Assembly (NCBI GenBank): GCA_964428655.1
Contig: CAYRYE010000001.1
Location: 312,406 to 376,405, forward strand
Source of the DNA: an uncultured Gammaproteobacteria bacterium
GTDB taxonomy: Bacteria > Patescibacteriota > Microgenomatia > UBA12405 > JAHJSD01
Direction of reading: 5' to 3'
Length of the DNA: 64,000 nt
Part shown: positions 21,338 through 33,103 of the stretch, piece by piece
How positions within the stretch are numbered: position 1 is the first letter of the stretch
Layout of the letters: each line of letters starts with the position of its first letter
Notes under the pieces: model-generated
Seen by the model: the letters and a program-made list of their open reading frames with translations, nothing else
Told to the model about the DNA's origin: nothing
Database searches by the model: none
Program-made: the position numbers and the translations under genes

Positions 21338-21512
21338 ACAAGGATGATAGCATGGCTTCGTTGAGTATCATTTTTTTGATACAATGACCCAGAATGAAAA
21401 ATGTTGTTAAGAGAGTAGCCGTGTTTGCCGATTTTTTAACCGGTGCCAGCAGGACCAAGGTAACAACTAGCCAAAAGAAAAAGTCCAACCAACCCCTAAA
21501 AGACTTGTTCAA
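21324..21512 (-). pseudogene. fragment paralogous to the membrane protein at 23150-23572
   Basis: About 55-nt DNA identity (about 88%) between 21443-21497 and 23347-23400; encodes WLDFFFWLVVTLVLLA vs WLDFLFWLVVALILLA; TTG start. Confidence 0.3.
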
Positions 21513-21695
21513 TAGGCCTTAGCAAATATGACTTTTGTTTTAGTAGGTTTTCCAGAAAAAACACATTTACCAGATTTCCCTTGATCAAAAGGAATACACC
21601 TTACCGTAGCTTTAATTTCATTTTTTATCTTTTCTTCTGCTTCAACGTCTTCCTTAAAATAAGCCAAAACAAAATTATTGTTATTTATTTCCTTT

Positions 21696-22955
21696 TTAAA
21701 TTCTTCCCCATGTCTTTACTTCTTTTGTTTTCTTTTTTCTGAAAGCTAATGCTTTTTCATAAAGACTTTCTTGAATATTCTCAAGTTCTTTCCCTATTTC
21801 TTTTTTAAGAACCTTAAGTTCAACAGATCTTTTCTCCCCATTATCACGACGAGCAATTGAAACAGTTCCTCCTTTTACTTCTCTTGGTCCAAGTTCTATT
21901 CTTAAAGGAACACCTTTTCTTTCCCATTTATAAAACTTTTCTCCTGGATGTTTATCAGATAAATCAATCTGTACCCTAAAATCATTTTCTAACTCTGACA
22001 AGAGTTCTTTTGCTTTCTTTATTACTAAATCCTTATCTTTTTCGCTTGGACAAATTGGGACAATCACAACTTGAACAGGTGCTACTTTAGGAGGTAAAAC
22101 TAAACCTACATCATCACTATGAACCATTATAATCGCACCAATAACTCTTGTACTCATACCCCAGCTGGTTTGATGACAATAAGTAGTTTTCCTATCTTCA
22201 TTCGTAAATTGAATACCAAAAGGTTTGGCAAAATTCTGACCTAAATCATGAGATGTTGCCAACTGCAAAGCTTTCCCATCTTGCATCATTGCCTCTAAAC
22301 AATATGTATCTTTTGCTCCAGCAAATCTTTCTGAATCTGTTTTAAGACCATCGATTATTGGTATAGCTAAAACTTCTTTTGCAAAGTCCTTGTAAACTTT
22401 TAACATTAAAAGCGTTCTTTCTTTTGACTCTTTAGCCGTAGCATGAACAGTATGTCCTTCTTGCCATAGGAACTCTGTTGTTCTTAAAAACAATCTTGGT
22501 CTTTTTTCCCACCTTACAACATTCGCCCACTGATTAAGTAAAATAGGTAAGTCGTTATAAGATTGAACCCATTTTGAAACAGTGTCATAAATAATTGTTT
22601 CAGAAGTAGGTCTAATAATAAGAGCTTCTTTAAGTTTCTTGCCTCCAGCATAAGTAACAGCTGCAATTTCGGGAGAAAAACCTTCAACATGTTCCTCTTC
22701 TTTCTTAAGAAATCTTTCAGGAATTAATAAAGGAAAGTAAGCATTGACGACACCTGTTTTCTTTATTCTTTTATCGAAACTCCTTTGTATTAACTCCCAC
22801 ATAGCATAACCATGAGGCTTAATAACCATCGATCCTTTACTTGCGCCATGTTCAGCTAATTCAGCTGTTCTAATAATATCTAAATACCATTGAGAAAAAT
22901 CTTGATCTCTACTTACAACTCCTTCTTCCTTTTTATCTTTATTTTTCATTTTCAT
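21696..22955 (-). CDS. proS: archaeal/eukaryotic-type prolyl-tRNA synthetase; the C-terminal domain continues in another frame to 21509
   Basis: Class II motifs; the downstream frame 21509-21715 encodes the ProRS C-terminal domain ending in the conserved terminal Tyr (...KVIFAKAY*). Confidence 0.85.
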   Translation of the reverse strand: MKMKNKDKKEEGVVSRDQDFSQWYLDIIRTAELAEHGASKGSMVIKPHGYAMWELIQRSFDKRIKKTGVVNAYFPLLIPERFLKKEEEHVEGFSPEIAAVTYAGGKKLKEALIIRPTSETIIYDTVSKWVQSYNDLPILLNQWANVVRWEKRPRLFLRTTEFLWQEGHTVHATAKESKERTLLMLKVYKDFAKEVLAIPIIDGLKTDSERFAGAKDTYCLEAMMQDGKALQLATSHDLGQNFAKPFGIQFTNEDRKTTYCHQTSWGMSTRVIGAIIMVHSDDVGLVLPPKVAPVQVVIVPICPSEKDKDLVIKKAKELLSELENDFRVQIDLSDKHPGEKFYKWERKGVPLRIELGPREVKGGTVSIARRDNGEKRSVELKVLKKEIGKELENIQESLYEKALAFRKKKTKEVKTWGRI

Positions 22956-24363: not shown

Positions 24364-24412
24364 AAGAAAAACTTGATATTATGATGTCATGTTTAAAAAA
24401 TGCTTCATTTTT
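24364..24412 (+). repeat. direct repeat copy 1 (about 45 bp, 2-3 mismatches) of the promoter/start region of the 26903 gene; encodes a truncated MFKKCF... start
   Basis: aaaaacttgatattatgatgtcatgtttaaaaaatgctt vs 26881-26919 aaaaacttgatattatgatgtcatgcttaaaaaatgctt. Confidence 0.7.
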
Positions 24413-24453: not shown

Positions 24454-24840
24454 TCATTCAATTACAGGAAGATAGACACAACGACAACCATATTTATGCA
24501 CACACCTTTCAATTGGGAGGGGGTTTTTCTTAAGAGCGTGGTCTATTAAAAATATTTTTCCATCTAATTTTAAACACCTCCCACAAGAACTACTATCCGT
24601 TAAAACCTCTACCTTTTTGGCCCCCTGAGTTTTCATTCTCTTAAGTTGCTCTTTTTGCTTTCTAAGTTTCATCTTGTAACCCAACTCCCTCATTTGATTT
24701 GGATCTTTACCTTCCTTAGTCAGAAAATCAGCCATCTCATAATAAACTGTTCCCATTCCATAAAAATCGCTGACCTTCATCAAGTCGTTGAGTTTTTTGT
24801 TAAAACGACGCCATTTTTCGTCGGGGGCAAGTTTAGGCAT
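24454..24840 (-). CDS. Cys-rich (zinc-ribbon-like) small protein, partner of the upstream HEPN gene
   Basis: C-terminal CGRC...x17...C..YGCRC; 8-nt gap to the HEPN ORF on the same strand. Confidence 0.4.
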   Translation of the reverse strand: MPKLAPDEKWRRFNKKLNDLMKVSDFYGMGTVYYEMADFLTKEGKDPNQMRELGYKMKLRKQKEQLKRMKTQGAKKVEVLTDSSSCGRCLKLDGKIFLIDHALKKNPLPIERCVHKYGCRCVYLPVIE

Positions 24841-24848
24841 TTTGAAAT

Positions 24849-25403
24849 TTAATATTCTTCATATTTTTCTATTATCCTTTGCTTAGCTTTTTTTAACTCC
24901 TGTGGAGATAAGAAACTCTGATATTGCCAAATTTTCCCATCTTTTGAAAAAGCTTGCAGGTAGCACTCGCAATAAATCTTTGGGTTTATTACAACCCTAT
25001 CCTTATTTTGCCTCCACCCTTTGCTTATTTTGTAGTCGTATTCGATTTTGTGTCCTCTGGAACTTATCCACTGATGAGCCAAAATATTCCTCCAATCATG
25101 TAAAACATGAGCTATTTTCGAAAATTTTCTGTCTTTCGATTGTCCGTCTACAAACTTTTCAAGAAAAGTTCGATAGCCTTCCTTCCCACTTTTGCCAAAG
25201 AGTGCTTCGGATATAGTTAGAGCAGCTGCATGGATACCAAGAAAAAGCAAAGAAGTCTGATGATGCTTTATAGTTAAAGAAATCTCGTTATTTAAAAAAT
25301 TATTAATTGAGTTAAGAAGTGTTTCTATTGCCTCAATTGGTGGTCCGCTCCTTAATCTTCTCAGCCGCCTAGCTTTAGGTTCCATATGTGCTCTATTCCA
25401 CAT
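24849..25403 (-). CDS. HEPN-domain protein (Rx4H motif), candidate RNase toxin / abortive-infection-like
   Basis: HVLHDWRNILAHQW contains R-N-x3-H in a predicted helical context; 184 aa. Confidence 0.45.
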   Translation of the reverse strand: MWNRAHMEPKARRLRRLRSGPPIEAIETLLNSINNFLNNEISLTIKHHQTSLLFLGIHAAALTISEALFGKSGKEGYRTFLEKFVDGQSKDRKFSKIAHVLHDWRNILAHQWISSRGHKIEYDYKISKGWRQNKDRVVINPKIYCECYLQAFSKDGKIWQYQSFLSPQELKKAKQRIIEKYEEY

Positions 25404-25676: not shown

Positions 25677-26402
25677 TTACTCCACGGGGTAATCTGTTTC
25701 TATATCTCCTTTGTCCATCATTTCCAATTTACACTCCTTGTTTTCTTCTCCAGTTGTGGGATCCCAACACTTGTAGGCAATAGATATTTCGTCGATAAAG
25801 CCACTGCGATTTTCAGAATTTAGGGCAATCTCGAAAATTACTTCTTCTGAGACATTCAGCAGGGAAGACCAATCCGCGCTTAATAAGCTTCCTCTCCATC
25901 TATCGGCCCGAGTCTTCCAGTATTGAATCTCATTAAGGGGGAAGATATATTCTGAAAATTCCCTTCCGTCACCCGTTCCTATTTGATTCTCTGATTTTAT
26001 ATGCCCTCCAAAGTTATTGGGGTTAATATATACATTCTCCCATTTTTCCAAAGCTCCGTGGTCAGTGCCTACTCTAACCAATAAATAACCACAAGCTACT
26101 TTAGATTTTTTTGTTTCATTTTTGGTAACAACTTTTTGTAAATTAATAAACCTTCCCCCACTAGCAAACATAGATTTTCTACCATCTATAAGTTTTACTA
26201 TTTTGCCATCACTTTCTGTAAGGGAATTGTAGGACTGTGAATCTGCAGGACATTTAACACTTTCATATGCTGGGGTTGGGACAGAAGGCACTTCCTTAGG
26301 CCCATAGAGATTACGCACTGCATTCTGTATGAATGCGCCCGCTGTGATAATGCCTAATGTTATAACGGCGACTAAGCCACCTTTAATAATATTTTTATTC
26401 AT
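25677..26402 (-). CDS. hypothetical secreted/membrane-anchored protein
   Basis: Probable start MNKNIIKGGLVAVITLGIITAGAF (signal anchor); no known motif. Confidence 0.35.
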   Translation of the reverse strand: MNKNIIKGGLVAVITLGIITAGAFIQNAVRNLYGPKEVPSVPTPAYESVKCPADSQSYNSLTESDGKIVKLIDGRKSMFASGGRFINLQKVVTKNETKKSKVACGYLLVRVGTDHGALEKWENVYINPNNFGGHIKSENQIGTGDGREFSEYIFPLNEIQYWKTRADRWRGSLLSADWSSLLNVSEEVIFEIALNSENRSGFIDEISIAYKCWDPTTGEENKECKLEMMDKGDIETDYPVE

Positions 26403-26679
26403 ATGTTTTCTCTTTCTTAACAAGGAACCCCTGTAATATCCAAAGTATTCCGATTGCAAACGCTAGTGCAAAAACTAGCATAAAAGCATCATGAAACATA
26501 TTTGGAAATTCTCTCCATTTTGGCCAAATATACATTATTGCAGTAATCCCACTTATTAAAAGAAAAGGGTAGTCTATTTCCCCTTTTGTGATTATCAGTG
26601 CAATGAATCCTGAAGATGCCAAAAAAACCAAGGGGCTAAAAACCCACCTGTCAGGCGATTTTTGCATTTTACTTGACAC
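26395..26679 (-). CDS. small three-TM membrane protein
   Basis: Hydrophobic 94-aa ORF. Confidence 0.3.
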   Translation of the reverse strand: MSSKMQKSPDRWVFSPLVFLASSGFIALIITKGEIDYPFLLISGITAIMYIWPKWREFPNMFHDAFMLVFALAFAIGILWILQGFLVKKEKTYE

Positions 26680-26876: not shown

Positions 26877-26925
26877 AGATAAAAACTTGATATTATGATG
26901 TCATGCTTAAAAAATGCTTTTTAAT
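26877..26925 (+). repeat. direct repeat copy 2, the intact promoter/start of the surface-protein gene
   Basis: See copy 1 at 24364-24412. Confidence 0.7.
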
Positions 26926-28144
26926 TTTTTTCTTCTTATTTTCACTCCCCTCACTATTTTTTCCAAAAATTTGCTCTGCTTTTTCCATTAAAAATTTGAG
27001 TGTTTCAGAAATTAATTCACCAGAAAATATTATTGAGGCAACTTTGGACCTAAGTGATTTACCAAGCAGCGCTTCTTATTTCCGAATCGCCTTTACTAAA
27101 AGTGATACTAACCCAAGTTATTTTGGAAAGATGAAAAACGATAAGGATGATTGGGTAGAAATAGGCCCACTCGGTGATTGTGACAATTATTATCGAATGG
27201 ATGAGTTAAACCAAGATGAACTGGTTCTTAGGATTAAAATGGGCAAAGAGGTAGAGTCAGGCACATATTTCCTAAGAGCACACCGCTTAACAGAGACTGG
27301 TTGTAGTCCAACTCCTACGAATTTTATTTCGATTGTGTATACTCCCTTACCAACTGCGATATTGCTGCTCCCGACTCCCACGGAGCCGTCTGGTGAAACA
27401 ACCAACATTCCAACTCCTACTAACACTCCAGAGCCTTTTTCAATCACTGCCAATTTTAATAGTTCTGTTTCAGCCGGAGAAGAATTTGATGTTAGTGTTG
27501 AAATCCAAAATGACGAAAGCGAGACAGAATATTATTTGAAGGCAAGGATTGGTGAAGATACTTCTGAGTTAACCAGAGGAGAAACTTATTCATCAGAGAG
27601 TAACAGTTGGCTTACTGACGGTAGCGCTTGGACAGAATTTCCAAAATTTACAACTACTGATGGAAGTTGGTCCGGCTCAGTTAAAGCAAAAGTAAAAAAT
27701 GACTCATCAGCAGGAGATTATTATTTAGTGGTAAGAGTTCGTGAGGTAGATGGTGGAAATAAAGATAGTGTTGAATATCAATTGACAGTTAGTTCGCCCT
27801 CTTCGCCAACATCCACCCCTACTCCAAACCCAACTACAAAACCCTCATCAACTCCTAAGCCAACCGCAACCAAAAAACCCTCTCCTACTTTAAAACCATC
27901 ACCCACTTTTGAGGCAACTCCATCTGGGGACATTGTATTTTCAACTGCTTCTGCTGGTAAAATTTTAGGTGAGTTTGGAGAGGCAACTGAGTCTGGTGAG
28001 GGCGATGAGAAAAAACAAAAGACAACTAATAGAATAGTTGCTGGAATTTTGATTGTTCTTGGCGGGGGATTAATATCAGTTGTTGGTTTTGCGCCAAAAA
28101 TTAAAGAGTTTCTCGAAAATAGAAAAGTGAGGCATGGAGAATAA
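26903..28144 (+). CDS. cell-surface protein with signal peptide, Pro/Thr/Ser-rich linker and C-terminal TM anchor
   Basis: N-terminal signal, PTPTPNPTTKPSSTPKPTATKKPSPT low-complexity stalk, C-terminal hydrophobic helix then basic residues. Confidence 0.5.
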   Translation: MLKKCFLIFFFLFSLPSLFFPKICSAFSIKNLSVSEINSPENIIEATLDLSDLPSSASYFRIAFTKSDTNPSYFGKMKNDKDDWVEIGPLGDCDNYYRMDELNQDELVLRIKMGKEVESGTYFLRAHRLTETGCSPTPTNFISIVYTPLPTAILLLPTPTEPSGETTNIPTPTNTPEPFSITANFNSSVSAGEEFDVSVEIQNDESETEYYLKARIGEDTSELTRGETYSSESNSWLTDGSAWTEFPKFTTTDGSWSGSVKAKVKNDSSAGDYYLVVRVREVDGGNKDSVEYQLTVSSPSSPTSTPTPNPTTKPSSTPKPTATKKPSPTLKPSPTFEATPSGDIVFSTASAGKILGEFGEATESGEGDEKKQKTTNRIVAGILIVLGGGLISVVGFAPKIKEFLENRKVRHGE

Positions 28145-28592: not shown

Positions 28593-28659
28593 GAAGTAAC
28601 TTGCTCGTTGACGATAAAGATTAAAAATTAATTTTACAAAAAGAAAGGAGGTGAAAAGA

Positions 28660-29268
28660 ATGAAAAACATTTTAAAAAGTCTTTTTATAATTTCGGTGGC
28701 ATTGACAGTTATGAGTGTTTCCACTTATGCTGCTTGGACCGCAAGCGCTACTGTTCAGAACAACACTTTTAGTACCGGGAATGCAGCCTTGAGGCTTTAT
28801 GGTAATTTAGGAGGTGTTCCGGGAACTAATGCGGCCTTGACTCAAACTTTAGCCGGAAGCTCGTTTTCTAATCTTTACCCGAATTGGCAGCAAGATTATT
28901 TGGCAAAACTTTATAATAATGGCACAGTCAATTTGCAAGCGAGCGTAACAGGTGTTTATGTTTCAGAAGATGCAGATTTAAGAAATCGTATTTCTGTTGA
29001 AGTTTGGCAGTGGAATGATGAAGGTGATGGCACTACCGGTCCTGGAGACACTTATTCTTTATTGTCTGCAGCTCAGACTTTGCAGAGCTGGAGAACAAAT
29101 CCAGTTTCTTTAGGTCAGCTAGATGTTGGCAACACGGTTGGAGTTTTATTGAGATTTACGACAGGCGATCTGTCCAACGCATATCAAGGAAAAACAACAG
29201 TATTTGATTTTCTGCTTGATGGCACGACTACGGGAGCAACTCAAAGTACTCCGCCAACATTGCCATAA
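28660..29268 (+). CDS. TasA/camelysin-like secreted protein with a SipW-cognate-type signal peptide
   Basis: Signal peptide then AAWTASATVQNNTFSTGNAALRL, matching the A-x-F-[ST]...N-T-F-x-x-G pattern of SipW substrates; immediately upstream of a SipW-type peptidase. Confidence 0.55.
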   Translation: MKNILKSLFIISVALTVMSVSTYAAWTASATVQNNTFSTGNAALRLYGNLGGVPGTNAALTQTLAGSSFSNLYPNWQQDYLAKLYNNGTVNLQASVTGVYVSEDADLRNRISVEVWQWNDEGDGTTGPGDTYSLLSAAQTLQSWRTNPVSLGQLDVGNTVGVLLRFTTGDLSNAYQGKTTVFDFLLDGTTTGATQSTPPTLP

Positions 29269-29334
29269 TTCGAGGTTGGTGTTTTTTAGATTGCAAAAGC
29301 CTTGTGTTTTTGCAATCGCTGGAGACGCCAACTT

Positions 29335-29883
29335 ATGAAAAAATTAAAATTAGCAAAGACAGTAATTGGTACGGTTTTCTTTTTGTTTGTTTTGATCGTT
29401 GGGTCATTTGTTTTTCTTTCCGGTAAAAAAGATATTAATGGCTGGAGGTTTTTGGTGGTTAAGTCAGGCTCGATGGAACCAACAATAAAAACTGGCAGCC
29501 TCATCTTTATTAAACAAAAAGAAGAATATCAAGAAAGCGATATCGTAACCTATGGTCCAGTTACTCGGCCTGATTTTTTAGTTACCCACAGAATTGTTGA
29601 TGAAATTAGTGAGGGTGAAGAGAAATATTTTGTGACCAAAGGGGATTTCAATGAGAAGGAAGATGTGGAGAAGGTTTATTCTCAAGAAGTAATTGGAAAA
29701 TATCAGTTTGGAATTCCCTATTTTGGATATGTAATCAATTTTGCCAAAACTCGAGCTGGCGTTATTTTGTTAGTGGTCATTCCTGGCACTCTAATTGTTT
29801 ACGAAGAATTTAAAAACATTAAAAATTACATTTCTGGCCTTTTTTCGAAAATAAAAGAGAAAAAAGCAAAACAGGATCAATAA
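29335..29883 (+). CDS. sipW: signal peptidase I, archaeal/ER-type (SipW/Sec11 family)
   Basis: VVKSGSMEPTIKTGSLIF (Ser box), VTHRIV (His box), VTKGDFN (TKGDNN box). Confidence 0.8.
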   Translation: MKKLKLAKTVIGTVFFLFVLIVGSFVFLSGKKDINGWRFLVVKSGSMEPTIKTGSLIFIKQKEEYQESDIVTYGPVTRPDFLVTHRIVDEISEGEEKYFVTKGDFNEKEDVEKVYSQEVIGKYQFGIPYFGYVINFAKTRAGVILLVVIPGTLIVYEEFKNIKNYISGLFSKIKEKKAKQDQ

Positions 29884-31847
29884 TGAGGCGCTATTTGTAC
29901 CTTTTGTTGTGTTTGGTGTTAGTTAATTTTTTGGTTTTAGAAACTAATGCGGTGTTTACGGCGTCTACAGCGGTAGGAAGCAGTTCTTGGACTACCGGTG
30001 ATTGGACTCCGCCGAGTTCGGAGATAACTGATATTACCGGCAGTGGCAGTCTCGATCCAATTACTAATCTCAGCAGTTTTACTATTCATTACGAAGCAGC
30101 TGATTCTGGACTTGGCGTTCATTATGTTGAATTATGGTACTCCTATAATTATGGTGAGTGGCAGTATTTTGATAATGATTATCCTAGTTCAGCAGGAAGT
30201 TTTGAGTTTGATATGCCGGAAGGAGATGGCTTTTATGAATTTATTACTGTAGCAATTGATGAGTCTGGCAATGTGGAGGATCGAGATGGTGATGGGGAAA
30301 ATGACAATGCAAATCAGGAAGCCTTAAATAATGCAGCGTTTAGTTTGGAAGAAGACTTATGGATGATAGAAGTTGACACTCAAGCGCCAACAATGAATTT
30401 ATCTCTTGATGAATTTGGCAGTGATCGTTGGGCAGGTCAGGATTTATTAATTAATGGAAGCTTTGAAGAGGGTTCAAATGCTTGGTTAACCGGAAGTTTA
30501 GGCGATCATCATCTAGTTAGCGAAGGAGAAGATGATTTGGGAGATCCAATTTTGCCGGCAGAAGGTGAAAACATGTTTATTTTAGGCTTCAAAGATGCTT
30601 CGCCTTCAGACGAGGCAATTGATTGGTTATATCAAGATGTAGTTTTGCCGGTTAACATTTCCAGCAGCTTGAGTTTTTGGTGGCGGATGGTTAGTGAAGA
30701 TACGGTAGATTATGATCAGTTCTCAGTTTGGGTTAAAGATGATAATAATCATCCATTAGAGAGAATTTTAACTACTGGCTCAGGGGAAATTTGGGACATT
30801 TCTGCTTGGGACGGCGATTCTGGTTGGCAAGAAATTACCCATCCCTTGGTCAATTTTGCTGGCAGACCAATCCGAATTTGGTTTGAGTTAGTGGACAAGG
30901 GCGCTGATGATAAAAGTTGGGTTTACATTGATGGTGTTCGAGCAACTACAACCGATAACAGAATAACTGAAGAGAAAGAGATTGATTTTGAAGTTCACGA
31001 TGGTTCAGGATCGGGAACATTCGAAGCTAATTATGAGGTTGATGGAGTGCCATTCGGCGATTATTCAGGAGTTCCGTTTACTTTGGCTTCAGGTGATTAT
31101 GACATTGCCAATAGCGGAGAAGATGTGGCCGGCAACATTGAATCTCCAGAAACGGATGAACTGGTAGTTTTACCACCAATGGTCATTAACGCTTTTTCGG
31201 CCGCACCATCAATTGGTGATGAGTGGGTTGATTTGTACAACAATTCCAGTTCTCCGATAAACGTTGATGGTTGGCAAATTTGTGATTCTCTAAACCAGTG
31301 CCAAGGTTTGAGTTTAGGAAACTCGGAGAGCGGTGATACTTGGATTGGTTCCCACGATAGTTTGAGATTTTTGGATAATTTTCTTCTCAATAATCTTGGT
31401 GATACGGTAATTTTGAAAAATGACATGGCTGAGGAGCAGGATAGGTTTCTTTATCCTTCATTTGCTGGTGATTATAATTGGATCTGGCAGCGGAATCCTG
31501 ATGGCATTGGCAGTTGGGAATTAAACAAGCCAGAAATCGATGCTCATATTACCAGTCGCTACGATGAAGCGAATAAGATTTTGCTAACGATATTTAATAT
31601 TCCTGAAAATTATGGAGACGGTGATCTGATTGAATATGAAATTGTTTATAACAACGGAGATAGGGGAATTGCCGGAACTATTTTAGCGGAGACAGTTGAG
31701 AATGGTAAGGCGGATCGGGAGTTTTATCTGGGAACCTGCTCGGCTATGGGAGTTTGTACGCCGGATGAGGTTCCAACTAGAGAAGTTGAACTAACCTTGA
31801 CTCAAGGAATAACGGTAATTATTAATCAAAGAGAATTTGGTATTTAA
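29883..31847 (+). CDS. large secreted protein with a SipW-cognate-like N-terminus and a C-terminal lamin-tail domain (LTD)
   Basis: N-terminus NAVFTASTAVGSSSWTTG; C-terminal INAFSAAPSIGDEWVDLYNNSSSPINVDGWQICDS...LGDTVILKN matches the LTD pattern. Confidence 0.5.
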   Translation: MRRYLYLLLCLVLVNFLVLETNAVFTASTAVGSSSWTTGDWTPPSSEITDITGSGSLDPITNLSSFTIHYEAADSGLGVHYVELWYSYNYGEWQYFDNDYPSSAGSFEFDMPEGDGFYEFITVAIDESGNVEDRDGDGENDNANQEALNNAAFSLEEDLWMIEVDTQAPTMNLSLDEFGSDRWAGQDLLINGSFEEGSNAWLTGSLGDHHLVSEGEDDLGDPILPAEGENMFILGFKDASPSDEAIDWLYQDVVLPVNISSSLSFWWRMVSEDTVDYDQFSVWVKDDNNHPLERILTTGSGEIWDISAWDGDSGWQEITHPLVNFAGRPIRIWFELVDKGADDKSWVYIDGVRATTTDNRITEEKEIDFEVHDGSGSGTFEANYEVDGVPFGDYSGVPFTLASGDYDIANSGEDVAGNIESPETDELVVLPPMVINAFSAAPSIGDEWVDLYNNSSSPINVDGWQICDSLNQCQGLSLGNSESGDTWIGSHDSLRFLDNFLLNNLGDTVILKNDMAEEQDRFLYPSFAGDYNWIWQRNPDGIGSWELNKPEIDAHITSRYDEANKILLTIFNIPENYGDGDLIEYEIVYNNGDRGIAGTILAETVENGKADREFYLGTCSAMGVCTPDEVPTREVELTLTQGITVIINQREFGI

Positions 31848-33103
31848 TGAGAAAAACTAGACTGTTCATATTATTTCTTTTGTCTTTAGTCTTGCCATTT
31901 TTGACTGCGCGTATTGTTTTGGCTCAAGGAATTACGGTTGATCCGACAGGCCCCATTTTTCTGCCTAGTGAGATTTGGTATCCGGGAAAAAATCTTACTC
32001 GGGAAATTACGGTAACTAATAATGCGGACGTCATTCATTTAATTGGAATTAATTCGGTCAACGAGAGTGAGAGCAAAAGCTTGAGCCAGGTGATTTATCT
32101 TACTATTAGCGATGAAAGTTTTACTTGTAGATATGGCTGTGGATTAGATATTAAAAATTTGGCTCAGTTTTGGCAGGAAAGCAATTTGGACGGGATTTAT
32201 CTTGGCGATTTAAACGCTGGTTCTTCTGTTGACTATTATTTTTCCGCCACAATGGATCCTTTGGCTGGTAATCAATATCAAGAGGCGGTGGCAACTTTTG
32301 ATTTAGTGTTTGGTTTGGCACCGACATTGCCAACCCCCACACCAACGCCGGTTGTTGATGGGACAGTGGCTGGTGCGTCTACAAATGGAGATGATGGAGT
32401 TGGAGGGGAAGCGCCTTGTTCAGCCCCTGAGCCAGGGGCGCCGTTTAGTTTAACTGCCGCTCCTGCTGGAGTGGGCCAGATATTGCTTAGCTGGCTGCCA
32501 CCAACTACGGGAACAGTAACTCATTACGCTATTGTTTATGGCACTAGTAGTGGCAATTACCTTTATGGAAATACAAATGTGGGATCAGGAACAACTTATG
32601 TTGTTTCTGGCTTATCAAGCGGAGTTCGTTACTATTTTGTTGTTGTTGCCGTTAATGATTGTGCTGCTGGGCTTTATTCAAATGAAGCGAGTGCTGTTGC
32701 TGGGGGAGTTTTGGGAGTGTTTACTCCTGAGGAGCCGGCCGAAGAGTTTGAAGTTTTGGGTGAAGAGACTGAGCCGGGGCAAATTGCTGGTGGGGAATCT
32801 ATAGAGGTGGGCGGGGTGGAAGGAGCGGTAGCGGAGAAAGTGTGTTTTTGGTGGTTGGTTTTCAGCTTAATTGTTTTGGTTTTTAATACTTGGTATTTGT
32901 ATGAATATCGGGAGAGAATGAAAAGTGAGAAATGGCGCTGGTTTGTTTTGGCAATAACAGGAGTTTTGGCTTTTTTTGCTGATAGATTTATGCACCAATG
33001 GTGGATGCCGTCAAGATTTTGTCACTATATGTGGTTGTTAGCTTCGTTAGCCTTCGCAGTTCCGGGGGGAATTTGGCTATTTTATTGGCGAAAGGAAGAA
33101 TAA
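31847..33103 (+). CDS. secreted surface protein with TasA-like N-terminus, fibronectin type III domain and C-terminal TM region
   Basis: ITVDPTGPIF...ITVTNNADV; FN3-like LTAAPAGVGQILLSWLPPTTGTVTHYAIVYG...YYFVVVAVN; three C-terminal hydrophobic helices. Confidence 0.5.
   Translation: MRKTRLFILFLLSLVLPFLTARIVLAQGITVDPTGPIFLPSEIWYPGKNLTREITVTNNADVIHLIGINSVNESESKSLSQVIYLTISDESFTCRYGCGLDIKNLAQFWQESNLDGIYLGDLNAGSSVDYYFSATMDPLAGNQYQEAVATFDLVFGLAPTLPTPTPTPVVDGTVAGASTNGDDGVGGEAPCSAPEPGAPFSLTAAPAGVGQILLSWLPPTTGTVTHYAIVYGTSSGNYLYGNTNVGSGTTYVVSGLSSGVRYYFVVVAVNDCAAGLYSNEASAVAGGVLGVFTPEEPAEEFEVLGEETEPGQIAGGESIEVGGVEGAVAEKVCFWWLVFSLIVLVFNTWYLYEYRERMKSEKWRWFVLAITGVLAFFADRFMHQWWMPSRFCHYMWLLASLAFAVPGGIWLFYWRKEE

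What the first reader, a model, noticed from the sequence alone, without database searches (positions are those of the whole stretch)
24454..25403. Two-gene HEPN (Rx4H) plus Cys-rich partner module: candidate toxin/defence pair
ORF 24849-25403 contains HVLHDWRNILAHQW, the canonical HEPN RNase motif (R-[NHQ]-x3-H). HEPN is typical of abortive-infection and toxin-antitoxin effectors such as Abi-type proteins, Swt1 and RiboL-PSP. It is followed 8 nt later by a 128-aa protein with a C-terminal CxxC...CxC zinc-ribbon-like cluster. The pair sits in a small accessory islet with hypothetical secreted/membrane proteins and is bounded by direct repeats. The pairing with a Zn-ribbon partner, rather than the usual MNT nucleotidyltransferase, is not a combination I can assign to a named system.
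Basis: partly seen in the sequence, partly recalled or inferred. Interest (0 to 1): 0.6.

Follow-up and report, generated by a model that had tools for sequence, protein, structure and literature searches.

The report
Solo HEPN-like gene beside MuF-like gene
The 184-aa gene belongs to an unannotated, strongly conserved family of probable HEPN-type RNases that travels with recombinases and restriction systems in tiny "candidate phyla" bacteria, but its Cys-rich neighbour is a phage MuF-like protein that is found next to it only here, so the two are not a conserved toxin/partner system.

Summary
Both ORFs exist: X is 24849-25403(-), 184 aa; Y is 24454-24840(-), 128 aa; the gap is 8 nt. A 39-nt direct repeat (38/39) brackets a 2.5-kb islet holding both.

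X matches no Pfam, NCBIfam, PADLOC, PHROG or PDB entry. It belongs to a compact family (at least 250 clusters, 55-69% identical), mostly Patescibacteria. Across 48 members down to 26% identity, only R105, N106, H110, G129 and N140 are invariant, so the R-N-x3-H motif is the family's signature. In a confident AF2 model the motif sits at the end of a core helix and runs into a loop, as described for HEPN. All similarity to known HEPN families is sub-threshold but consistent.

Homologues lie in variable defence or mobile neighbourhoods. One large-serine-recombinase subfamily lies within 0-3 genes in 10 of 25 loci. R-M systems, STAND NTPases, a Cap15-like gene and a Ymh-HEPN gene also recur.

Y is a stand-alone phage MuF/gp7-like domain, not a generic zinc ribbon. 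Y never neighbours X elsewhere (0 of about 30 X loci, 0 of 6 Y loci).

Verdict: X is a probable new solo HEPN family. No conserved two-gene module exists.

The parts
24849..25403 (-). X: 184-aa solo HEPN-like protein, member of an unannotated and strongly conserved family
   Evidence: ORF. At least 250 homologue clusters at 55-69% identity and 128 representatives at 50% identity. AF2 model with pLDDT 87.8. No curated family hit.
25074..25091 (-). Codons for R105-N106-I-L-A-H110, the putative HEPN Rx4H catalytic motif
   Evidence: Invariant in alignments A1 and A2. Lies at the end of predicted helix 94-110, before loop 111-119. This matches the HEPN description in PMC3710099.
24454..24840 (-). 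Y: 128-aa stand-alone MuF/SPP1-gp7-like (phage head-morphogenesis) domain protein. It is 8 nt downstream of X, so probably co-transcribed here, but it is not a conserved partner.
   Evidence: Pfam Phage_Mu_F E 5e-4 and TIGR01641 E 1.3e-5, both below cut-off. 11 of 21 family members hit Phage_Mu_F. BFVD fold hits are almost all MuF-like minor capsid proteins, best E 1.9e-4. Never adjacent to X elsewhere.
24478..24585 (-). Cys cluster of Y (C86, C89, C113, C119, C121), a probable Zn site in the MuF-like domain
   Evidence: All five Cys are invariant in 21 homologues. The region aligns to the C-terminal half of Phage_Mu_F/TIGR01641.
24367..24405 (+). Left copy of the 39-nt direct repeat; a relic of the promoter/start region of the 413-aa gene
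26881..26919 (+). Right copy of the 39-nt direct repeat; overlaps the start codon of ORF 26903-28144
25677..26679 (-). Two hypothetical ORFs (260-aa secreted-type and 94-aa membrane-type) that share the repeat-bounded islet with X and Y. No link to X or Y elsewhere.

Best explanation
X is a member of a previously unclassified family of small, stand-alone HEPN-like proteins.

Inferred mechanism: like other HEPN enzymes, it dimerises so that two R-N-x3-H motifs form a composite, metal-independent RNase site. It then cuts a cellular RNA (tRNA or rRNA) when triggered. In that role it would be a single-gene abortive-infection or back-up effector, or an addiction function, of mobile defence islands.

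Shown:
- The family is strongly conserved but sporadically distributed, mostly in Patescibacteria.
- Its only invariant block is the RNxxxH motif, at the end of a predicted core helix.
- Its homologues sit in variable neighbourhoods dominated by one subfamily of large serine recombinases, R-M systems and other defence genes.
- No conserved protein partner exists.

Inferred: RNase activity, dimerisation, the trigger and the defence role.

Y, the downstream 128-aa gene, is an unrelated stand-alone MuF/gp7-like domain protein. In this one genome it landed, or was retained, directly behind X inside a 2.5-kb islet bounded by 39-nt direct repeats. The X-Y adjacency is local, not a system.
For: Family and motif:
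- At least 250 clusters at 55-69% identity with a fixed length of about 185 aa.
- Only 128 representatives among 1.84 billion proteins.
- In 48 divergent members, the invariant residues are R105, N106, H110, G129 and N140.

Fold:
- The AF2 model (pLDDT 87.8) has helices 22-44 and 50-69, an inserted helix 73-85, and helix 94-110 ending in RNILAH followed by a loop.

Weak but one-sided similarity:
- The Foldseek PDB list has three independent HEPN families in the top 10: AbiV, AF_0298 and Csx1.
- Pfam scans of members give HEPN_Swt1 three times, HEPN once and pEK499_p136 once.
- PADLOC scans of members give CARF_HEPN at 7.6e-5 and Cas13c at 2.6e-4.
- The Ymh HEPN motif WWRNxLSH aligns to X's DWRNILAH.

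Context:
- A large serine recombinase of one subfamily (55-60% identical to each other) lies within 0-3 genes in 10 of 25 independent genome loci.
- R-M and restriction genes include type I HsdM/S, type IIG, Bsp6I with a methylase, Mrr and DpnI.
- Other neighbours include STAND/NACHT NTPases, a Cap15-like gene, Ymh, AbiEii, TIR and MobC.

Solo status:
- In L016 and L025, neither flanking gene is on the same strand and close.

Y as MuF-like.

No X-Y co-occurrence.
Against: - No statistically significant sequence or fold match to any HEPN family. Best Foldseek E was 1.1. Pfam hits are all below cut-off.
- hhalign against Ymh scored 21.0 versus 18.6 for a reversed control.
- I could not inspect model coordinates, so the four-helix topology and the solvent exposure of H110 are unverified.
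- In this window there is no recombinase, and the flanking genes annotated with Pfam include no R-M gene; they are housekeeping or surface genes. The defence context is therefore borrowed from homologues.
- A toxic RNase with no antitoxin needs another form of control, which I have not identified.
- The tight 8-nt X-Y spacing is compatible with co-expression.
Confidence: 0.55

Rival explanations
1. X (HEPN toxin or effector) and Y (Cys-rich partner) form a dedicated two-gene toxin-antitoxin or defence module, with Y neutralising or regulating X.
For: Same strand and an 8-nt gap, so they are probably co-transcribed. Both lie inside one repeat-bounded islet. Y homologues elsewhere sit directly downstream of another nuclease-type gene (Mrr_cat, L033) and among HicAB modules (L036). 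Y-like proteins could therefore be modular partners of nucleases.
Against: Y is absent from all 26 genome loci with X and from L001-L006, L043-L048 and the P0008 locus. X is absent from six independent Y loci, including the closest Y relatives at 65-73% identity. X has at least 250 clusters, whereas Y has 24. X is solitary in several genomes.
Confidence: 0.1
2. X is not an RNase. It is an accessory factor of the large-serine-recombinase elements it travels with, for example a recombination directionality factor or regulator. Under this model the RNxxxH block would serve binding rather than catalysis.
For: One LSR subfamily is adjacent or nearly adjacent in 10 of 25 loci. Its divergence (55-60%) is similar to X's own. 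RDFs of serine integrases are small, diverse and unannotated (own knowledge).
Against: 15 of 25 loci, and this window, have X without any LSR within about 6 kb. The order and orientation of X relative to the LSR vary: upstream, downstream, convergent and divergent. X also occurs with a tyrosine integrase and MobC. All weak homology signals point to HEPN.
Confidence: 0.12
3. X is a lineage-specific housekeeping RNA-processing factor of Patescibacteria, and its mobile or defence neighbours are incidental.
For: Very strong purifying selection and a fixed length. In this window and in L001 and L004 it lies near core genes: ProRS and FtsEX here, Obg and BipA in L001, DnaG and RpoD in L004. No antitoxin is present.
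Against: Only 26 loci were found among 185,579 species genomes with the two motif patterns, and only 128 representatives among 1.84 billion proteins. Synteny is not conserved. Defence and mobile genes are strongly enriched around it.
Confidence: 0.08

Closest known systems
Solo or R-M-linked HEPN families of the HEPN superfamily (Ymh/PF09509, AbiJ, AbiU2, AbiD/F, Swt1-like), as catalogued in PMC3710099
   Same: Small, mostly helical protein. Invariant R-N-x3-H with a polar residue after the R, at the end of a core helix. A W-R-N-x-L-[AS]-H signature nearly identical to Ymh's WWRNxLSH. Located in R-M and defence neighbourhoods. In L030, X lies directly behind a Ymh gene.
   Different: No significant profile match to any of these families. 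X has an extra N-terminal helix, a three-stranded beta insertion after the motif (residues 120-139) and three C-terminal helices. Conservation is unusually high for a conflict protein.
AbiV (Lactococcus HEPN RNase; PDB 9bj5/9bj6/9bj7; bioRxiv 10.1101/2024.05.05.592566)
   Same: About 200-aa solo HEPN protein with no protein antitoxin. It is the best-represented family among X's weak Foldseek hits (TM 0.30-0.41). X also has a near-invariant upstream His (H58). A second conserved His N-terminal to the motif is also a feature of AbiV and AF0298.
   Different: No PADLOC or Pfam AbiV hit. In AbiV and AF0298 the extra His lies in the helix-2/3 insert, whereas H58 lies in predicted helix 50-69. AbiV has an RNA antitoxin, abiV2. 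I found no repeats or structured RNA next to X, and the flanks of homologues are not conserved.
HepT/MntA (HEPN-MNT) type VII toxin-antitoxin pairs
   Same: Small HEPN toxin with an Rx4H motif.
   Different: No nucleotidyltransferase neighbour in the window or in any homologue locus.
Phage MuF / SPP1 gp7 head-morphogenesis domain (PF04233, TIGR01641), the carrier domain of MuF polymorphic toxins (PMC5576092, PMC5512222). This comparison is for Y.
   Same: Y aligns to the C-terminal half of both profiles. 11 of 21 relatives hit PF04233. The whole model superposes on MuF-like minor capsid proteins in BFVD (prob 1.0, TMq up to 0.56).
   Different: Y is only 128 aa, with no toxin or portal-associated extension. 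It is not in a prophage or among head genes. Neighbours are accessory cellular genes. Scores are below curated cut-offs for the window protein.

Membership tests
HEPN superfamily | Conserved Rx4-6H motif with a polar (N/D/H) residue after the R | tested here: met
   R105, N106 and H110 are invariant in 25 close and 48 divergent homologues. Definition from PMC3710099.
HEPN superfamily | [quoted passage not shown] | tested here: met
   AF2 model (pLDDT 87.8): helix 94-110 ends with RNILAH, followed by loop 111-119. Extra helix 73-85 lies between helices 50-69 and 94-110. Criterion. This rests on the secondary-structure string only; coordinates were not inspected.
HEPN superfamily | Four-helix up-down bundle shown by a significant fold or profile match to known HEPN domains | tested here: inconclusive
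HEPN superfamily | Metal-independent RNase activity dependent on the R and H of the motif | not testable with these tools
   Needs biochemistry.
HEPN-MNT (HepT/MntA) toxin-antitoxin | Adjacent minimal nucleotidyltransferase antitoxin gene | tested here: not met
   No NTase in the window neighbours or among neighbours of 25 homologue loci.
   Zero of 26 genome loci with X, plus the other X loci examined, contain Y. Zero of 6 independent Y loci contain X.
AbiV | Match to the AbiV profile, and an RNA antitoxin locus next to the gene | tested here: not met
   No AbiV hit in PADLOC or Pfam. No repeats or Rfam hit in the flanks. There is only weak fold resemblance.
PrrC/RloC-type R-M-linked anticodon nucleases | N-terminal ABC-type ATPase fused to the HEPN domain, embedded in a type I R-M operon | tested here: not met
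   X is 184 aa with no ATPase domain. Type I R-M genes are neighbours only in some homologue loci (L014, L027, L028) and are not present in this window.
Phage_Mu_F / SPP1 gp7 domain (for Y) | Profile match at or above the curated cut-off | tested here: inconclusive
   Window protein: PF04233 21.2 bits against a cut-off of 29.6; TIGR01641 25.5 bits against 39.65. 11 of 21 relatives match at E <= 0.01, best 5e-6. One relative carries a precomputed PF04233 hit.
Phage_Mu_F / SPP1 gp7 domain (for Y) | Fold match to MuF-like minor capsid proteins | tested here: met
   Model pLDDT 93.4. BFVD hits are almost exclusively minor capsid, head-morphogenesis or MuF-like proteins, with 3 hits at E < 1e-3 and prob 1.0.

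The most novel reading that the evidence does not exclude
The X family could be the conserved hallmark gene of a Patescibacteria-specific class of mobile defence islets driven by large serine recombinases. In that reading X is a partner-less HEPN RNase that either stabilises the islet (addiction without a protein antitoxin) or provides a generic second-line abortive response for whatever R-M or defence cargo the islet carries. In this genome it may additionally have recruited a MuF-like domain protein as a new kind of regulator.
Probability: 0.12. Interest if true: 0.6.

Novelty: new member of a known kind. Interest (0 to 1): 0.35.

Why it matters
If X is an active HEPN RNase, it adds an uncatalogued family to the defence repertoire of Patescibacteria. 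This family is unusually well conserved and has no partner gene. Few defence systems are recognised by current tools in these organisms: PADLOC, Pfam and NCBIfam all miss this family. Its recurrent linkage to one serine-recombinase subfamily and to R-M systems gives a handle on how defence islets move between these reduced genomes. The negative result also matters. A tight two-gene arrangement with a catalytic motif looked like a toxin/partner system, but it is a one-off juxtaposition.

Tried and rejected
1. Direct family assignment of X. Pfam, NCBIfam, PADLOC, PHROGs and PDB sequence searches, with both single sequences and profiles, gave nothing. Consensus sequences did not help.
3. Profile-profile test against a bona fide HEPN family. 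I built a Ymh alignment from the neighbour gene in L030. Only the motif aligned, and the score was no better than a reversed control.
4. Y as a conserved partner of X: rejected.
5. Any conserved upstream or downstream partner of X. BLAST clustering of neighbours found only the recombinase and methylase clusters. Upstream genes are unrelated: Ymh, DUF5677, a Cap15-like gene, and genes beside STAND NTPases.
6. An AbiV-like RNA antitoxin. No tandem repeats and no Rfam hit near X.
7. X or Y on known phages or plasmids, or in IMG/VR: none found.
8. An empty-site search with the 39-nt repeat in metagenome contigs: no match at all.
9. The 93-aa plus 260-aa gene pair next to Y in L033 has the same sizes as the window's 94-aa plus 260-aa pair, but there is no homology.
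10. Two apparent copies in one Saccharibacteria MAG (L020 and L029) are the same locus at 99% identity, not a duplication.
11. A recombinase in the window: none.

Full report
**Observation**

The two ORFs are as described.
- X is at 24849-25403(-) and encodes 184 aa. It contains HVLHDWRNILAHQW; the R105-N106-x3-H110 motif is encoded at nt 25074-25091.
- Y is at 24454-24840(-) and encodes 128 aa. It begins 8 nt after X's stop codon.
- Y carries C86-x2-C89, C113 and C119-x-C121.

A 39-nt repeat, 38/39 identical, lies at 24367-24405 and 26881-26919. A second, weaker block lies a few tens of nt upstream. The repeats enclose Y, X and two hypothetical ORFs: a 260-aa secreted-type ORF and a 94-aa membrane-type ORF. 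The right copy overlaps the start codon of the 413-aa gene at 26903. The left copy is a truncated relic of the same start. This looks like a 2.5-kb insertion or rearrangement within that gene's 5' region.

GC content of the islet does not stand out from its flanks. There are no tRNA genes in the window.

The motif on its own is not beyond chance. R[NHQD]x3H occurs in 2 of 62 window ORFs, against 1.8 expected.

**What X is**

X has no hit in Pfam, NCBIfam, PADLOC or PHROGs, nor in PDB sequences.

It is nevertheless far from an orphan.
- At least 250 clusters at 90% identity share 55-69% identity and an almost fixed length of 184-187 aa. They come mainly from Patescibacteria: Gottesmanbacteria, Paceibacteria, Saccharibacteria, Kaiserbacteria, Nomurabacteria, Microgenomates and Microsyncoccus. 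A few MAGs labelled as other phyla also carry it.
- An exhaustive HMM search of 1.84 billion representatives found only 128 members. These include a more divergent subfamily of about 220 aa. The family is therefore compact and isolated.
- In 48 members down to 26% identity, the only invariant positions are R105, N106, H110, G129 and N140. R13, H58, L81, F84, D86 and S95 are nearly invariant.
- The RNxxxH block is thus the family's signature.

The AF2 model is confident (pLDDT 87.8, pTM 0.85).
- Helices: 10-19, 22-44, 50-69, 73-85 and 94-110.
- Then three short strands at 120-139.
- Then helices 141-151, 157-163 and 167-183.
- The motif occupies the last turn of helix 94-110 and leads into loop 111-119.

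The reference analysis of the superfamily (PMC3710099) defines HEPN by four features:
- a four-helix up-down bundle;
[quoted passage not shown] - a polar N/D/H residue after the R.

X fits the motif, its position and the insert. I could not inspect coordinates, so the bundle topology is not verified.

Independent similarity evidence is weak but one-sided.
- Foldseek against PDB gave no significant hit (best E 1.1). However, AbiV (five chains), the AF_0298 HEPN protein and a Csx1 HEPN domain are all within the top 22 of 350,542 chains.
- Scanning the 48 members singly against Pfam put HEPN_Swt1 first by member count (3 members, best E 0.011). HEPN (0.036) and pEK499_p136 (0.12) each matched one member.
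- Against PADLOC, the two strongest hits were CARF_HEPN (7.6e-5) and Cas13c (2.6e-4), one member each.
- A profile-profile test against the Ymh HEPN family aligned WWRNxLSH with DWRNILAH. The score was 21.0, versus 18.6 for a reversed control, which is inconclusive.

I put HEPN membership at about 0.75.

**Genomic company of X**

I examined 26 genome loci, of which 25 are independent: L020 and L029 are the same locus at 99% identity. I also examined several metagenome loci. Synteny is not conserved, but the neighbours are strikingly of one kind.

*Recombinases*
- One subfamily of large serine recombinases (Resolvase + Recombinase + Zn_ribbon_recom domains; 55-60% identical to each other) lies within 0-3 genes of X in 10 of 25 loci. 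These are L012, L014, L016, L017, L021, L024, L026, L027, L028 and L030.
- The LSR lies in every relative order and orientation to X.

*Other neighbours*
- Type I R-M: HsdM and HsdS in L027; HsdM in L014 and L028.
- An MmeI/Eco57I-type IIG enzyme in L022.
- Bsp6I with a LexA-fused methylase and Vsr in L004, L005 and L012.
- Mrr_cat.
- DpnI.
- N6_N4 methylases.
- STAND/NACHT NTPases of 1285 and 1414 aa.
- A protein with a Cap15 cyclic-dinucleotide-receptor domain, a Ymh HEPN protein and DUF5677.
- HNH.
- In an Actinomycetota-labelled contig: MobC/NikA, a tyrosine integrase, AbiEii and TIR.

*Spacing and partners*
- X often follows an unrelated upstream gene by only 1-17 nt.
- In L016 and L025 it has no close same-strand neighbour at all.
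- X is therefore a stand-alone gene that rides in mobile, defence-rich islets.
- I found no copy in IMG/VR, in sequenced phages or in plasmids.

*This window*
- There is no recombinase.
- The annotated flanking genes include no R-M gene.
- The flanks are FtsE/FtsX, an M23 peptidase, an HD protein, ProRS, VanZ, a signal-peptidase-like gene and surface proteins.

**What Y is**

Y has only 24 homologue clusters.
- Invariant residues are five Cys (86, 89, 113, 119, 121) plus Y33, M36, A37, E43 and G54.
- Its C-terminal half matches the C-terminal half of Pfam Phage_Mu_F (E 5e-4) and TIGR01641 SPP1-gp7 (E 1.3e-5). Both are below curated cut-offs.
- 11 of 21 relatives match Phage_Mu_F, best E 5e-6.
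- The AF2 model (pLDDT 93.4) found nothing in PDB.
- In BFVD it hit almost exclusively MuF-like minor capsid or head-morphogenesis proteins: best E 1.9e-4, prob 1.0, TMq 0.56 over 121 of 128 residues.

Y is therefore a minimal, stand-alone MuF/gp7-like domain, not a generic zinc ribbon. MuF is known as a virion-associated carrier domain of phage effectors and polymorphic toxins (PMC5512222; PMC5576092). Y lacks any effector extension and is not among phage genes.

Y homologues sit in other accessory contexts:
- behind an Mrr_cat/Zn-ribbon protein (L033);
- behind a SHOCT protein between HicAB modules (L036);
- next to unknowns (L038-L042).

**Is X-Y a module?**

No.
- tblastn and blastp found Y in none of the X loci and X in none of the Y loci. 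This includes the closest Y relatives at 65-73% identity.
- The two families differ about tenfold in abundance.
- The 8-nt spacing implies co-transcription in this genome, but such spacing is normal for compact genomes.
- A functional link peculiar to this genome cannot be excluded. I give it about 0.1.

**Mechanism proposed**

*Shown*
- Invariant RNxxxH at a helix end.
- Solo gene status.
- Defence and mobile company.

*Inferred*
- X dimerises like other HEPN proteins to form a composite, metal-independent RNase site, with H110 as general acid/base and R105 and N106 stabilising the transition state.
- It is latent until triggered.
- It then cleaves abundant RNA: tRNA as for PrrC/RloC, or rRNA as reported for AbiV. 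This would abort infection or punish loss of the islet.
- The recurrent R-M linkage echoes the "second line behind R-M" theme described for Ymh, AbiJ, AbiU2 and PrrC.

*Unknown*
- How a partner-less toxin is restrained. I found no AbiV-type RNA antitoxin signature.

**Rivals**

- An accessory factor or RDF of the serine recombinases, about 0.12. Against it: 15 of 25 loci lack an LSR, orientation varies, and X also occurs with a tyrosine integrase.
- A lineage-specific housekeeping RNA-processing factor, about 0.08. Against it: sporadic distribution and no conserved synteny.
- The X-Y toxin/partner pair, about 0.1.

**Novelty and score**

This is a new, uncatalogued family within a well-known superfamily, in a well-known type of context. 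I class it as a new member of a known kind.

The serine-recombinase linkage and the very high conservation are mildly unusual and worth a systematic survey. The proposed new HEPN + Zn-ribbon system does not exist as a conserved entity.

Interest: 0.35.

Noticed in passing
window 21509-22955 (-): The archaeal-type prolyl-tRNA synthetase gene is split. The 419-aa ORF ends at 21696. The conserved C-terminal about 50 aa (…FVLAYFKEDVEAEEKIK…RCIPFDQ…) continues in another frame (21509-21667). The shift falls in a GGGG run near 21705 (…ACATGGGGAAGAATTT…). This is either a homopolymer sequencing or assembly error, or a genuine frameshift in an essential gene.
   Followed up: partly
window 24367-24405 and 26881-26919: A 39-nt direct repeat (38/39) plus a weaker upstream block. 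The right copy carries the start codon of the 413-aa surface-protein gene, and the left copy is a 28-codon relic. This suggests the 2.5-kb segment with X and Y was inserted into, or duplicated, that gene's 5' region. No integrase lies inside the segment, and no match to the repeat was found in metagenome contigs.
   Followed up: partly
L012, L014, L016, L017, L021, L024, L026, L027, L028, L030 (for example L016:4933-6279, L027:4616-5971): One subfamily of large serine recombinases (55-60% identical to each other) lies next to X homologues across distant Patescibacteria. It is often found with type I R-M genes, in the order HsdM/HsdS - LSR - X in L014, L027 and L028. This may define a family of mobile defence islets.
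   Followed up: partly
L013/L015:1258-5988 and the P0008 locus: Giant STAND/NACHT-like NTPases (1285 and 1414 aa) sit directly upstream of X homologues in three metagenome or MAG loci. In L013 and L015, an unannotated 289-aa gene lies between the NTPase and X.
   Followed up: no
L033:4198-5390: A Y homologue sits 74 nt downstream of a 242-aa Mrr_cat/NA-iREase1 protein with a Top1-type Zn ribbon. This parallels Y's position behind the putative nuclease X in the window. It could mean that Y-like MuF domains tend to follow nuclease genes, but only one such case was seen.
   Followed up: no
window 28651-33103 (+): A run of secreted or surface-protein genes downstream of the islet: a 205-aa protein with a signal peptide, an S24/S26-like signal peptidase, and LTD and fn3 domain proteins. 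It resembles a sortase- or SipW-type surface-structure operon.
   Followed up: no
L008, L011, L018, L032, L045: X homologues occur on contigs binned as Gammaproteobacteria, Aminicenantia and Actinomycetota. This reflects either horizontal transfer beyond Patescibacteria or mis-binning of short contigs.
   Followed up: no
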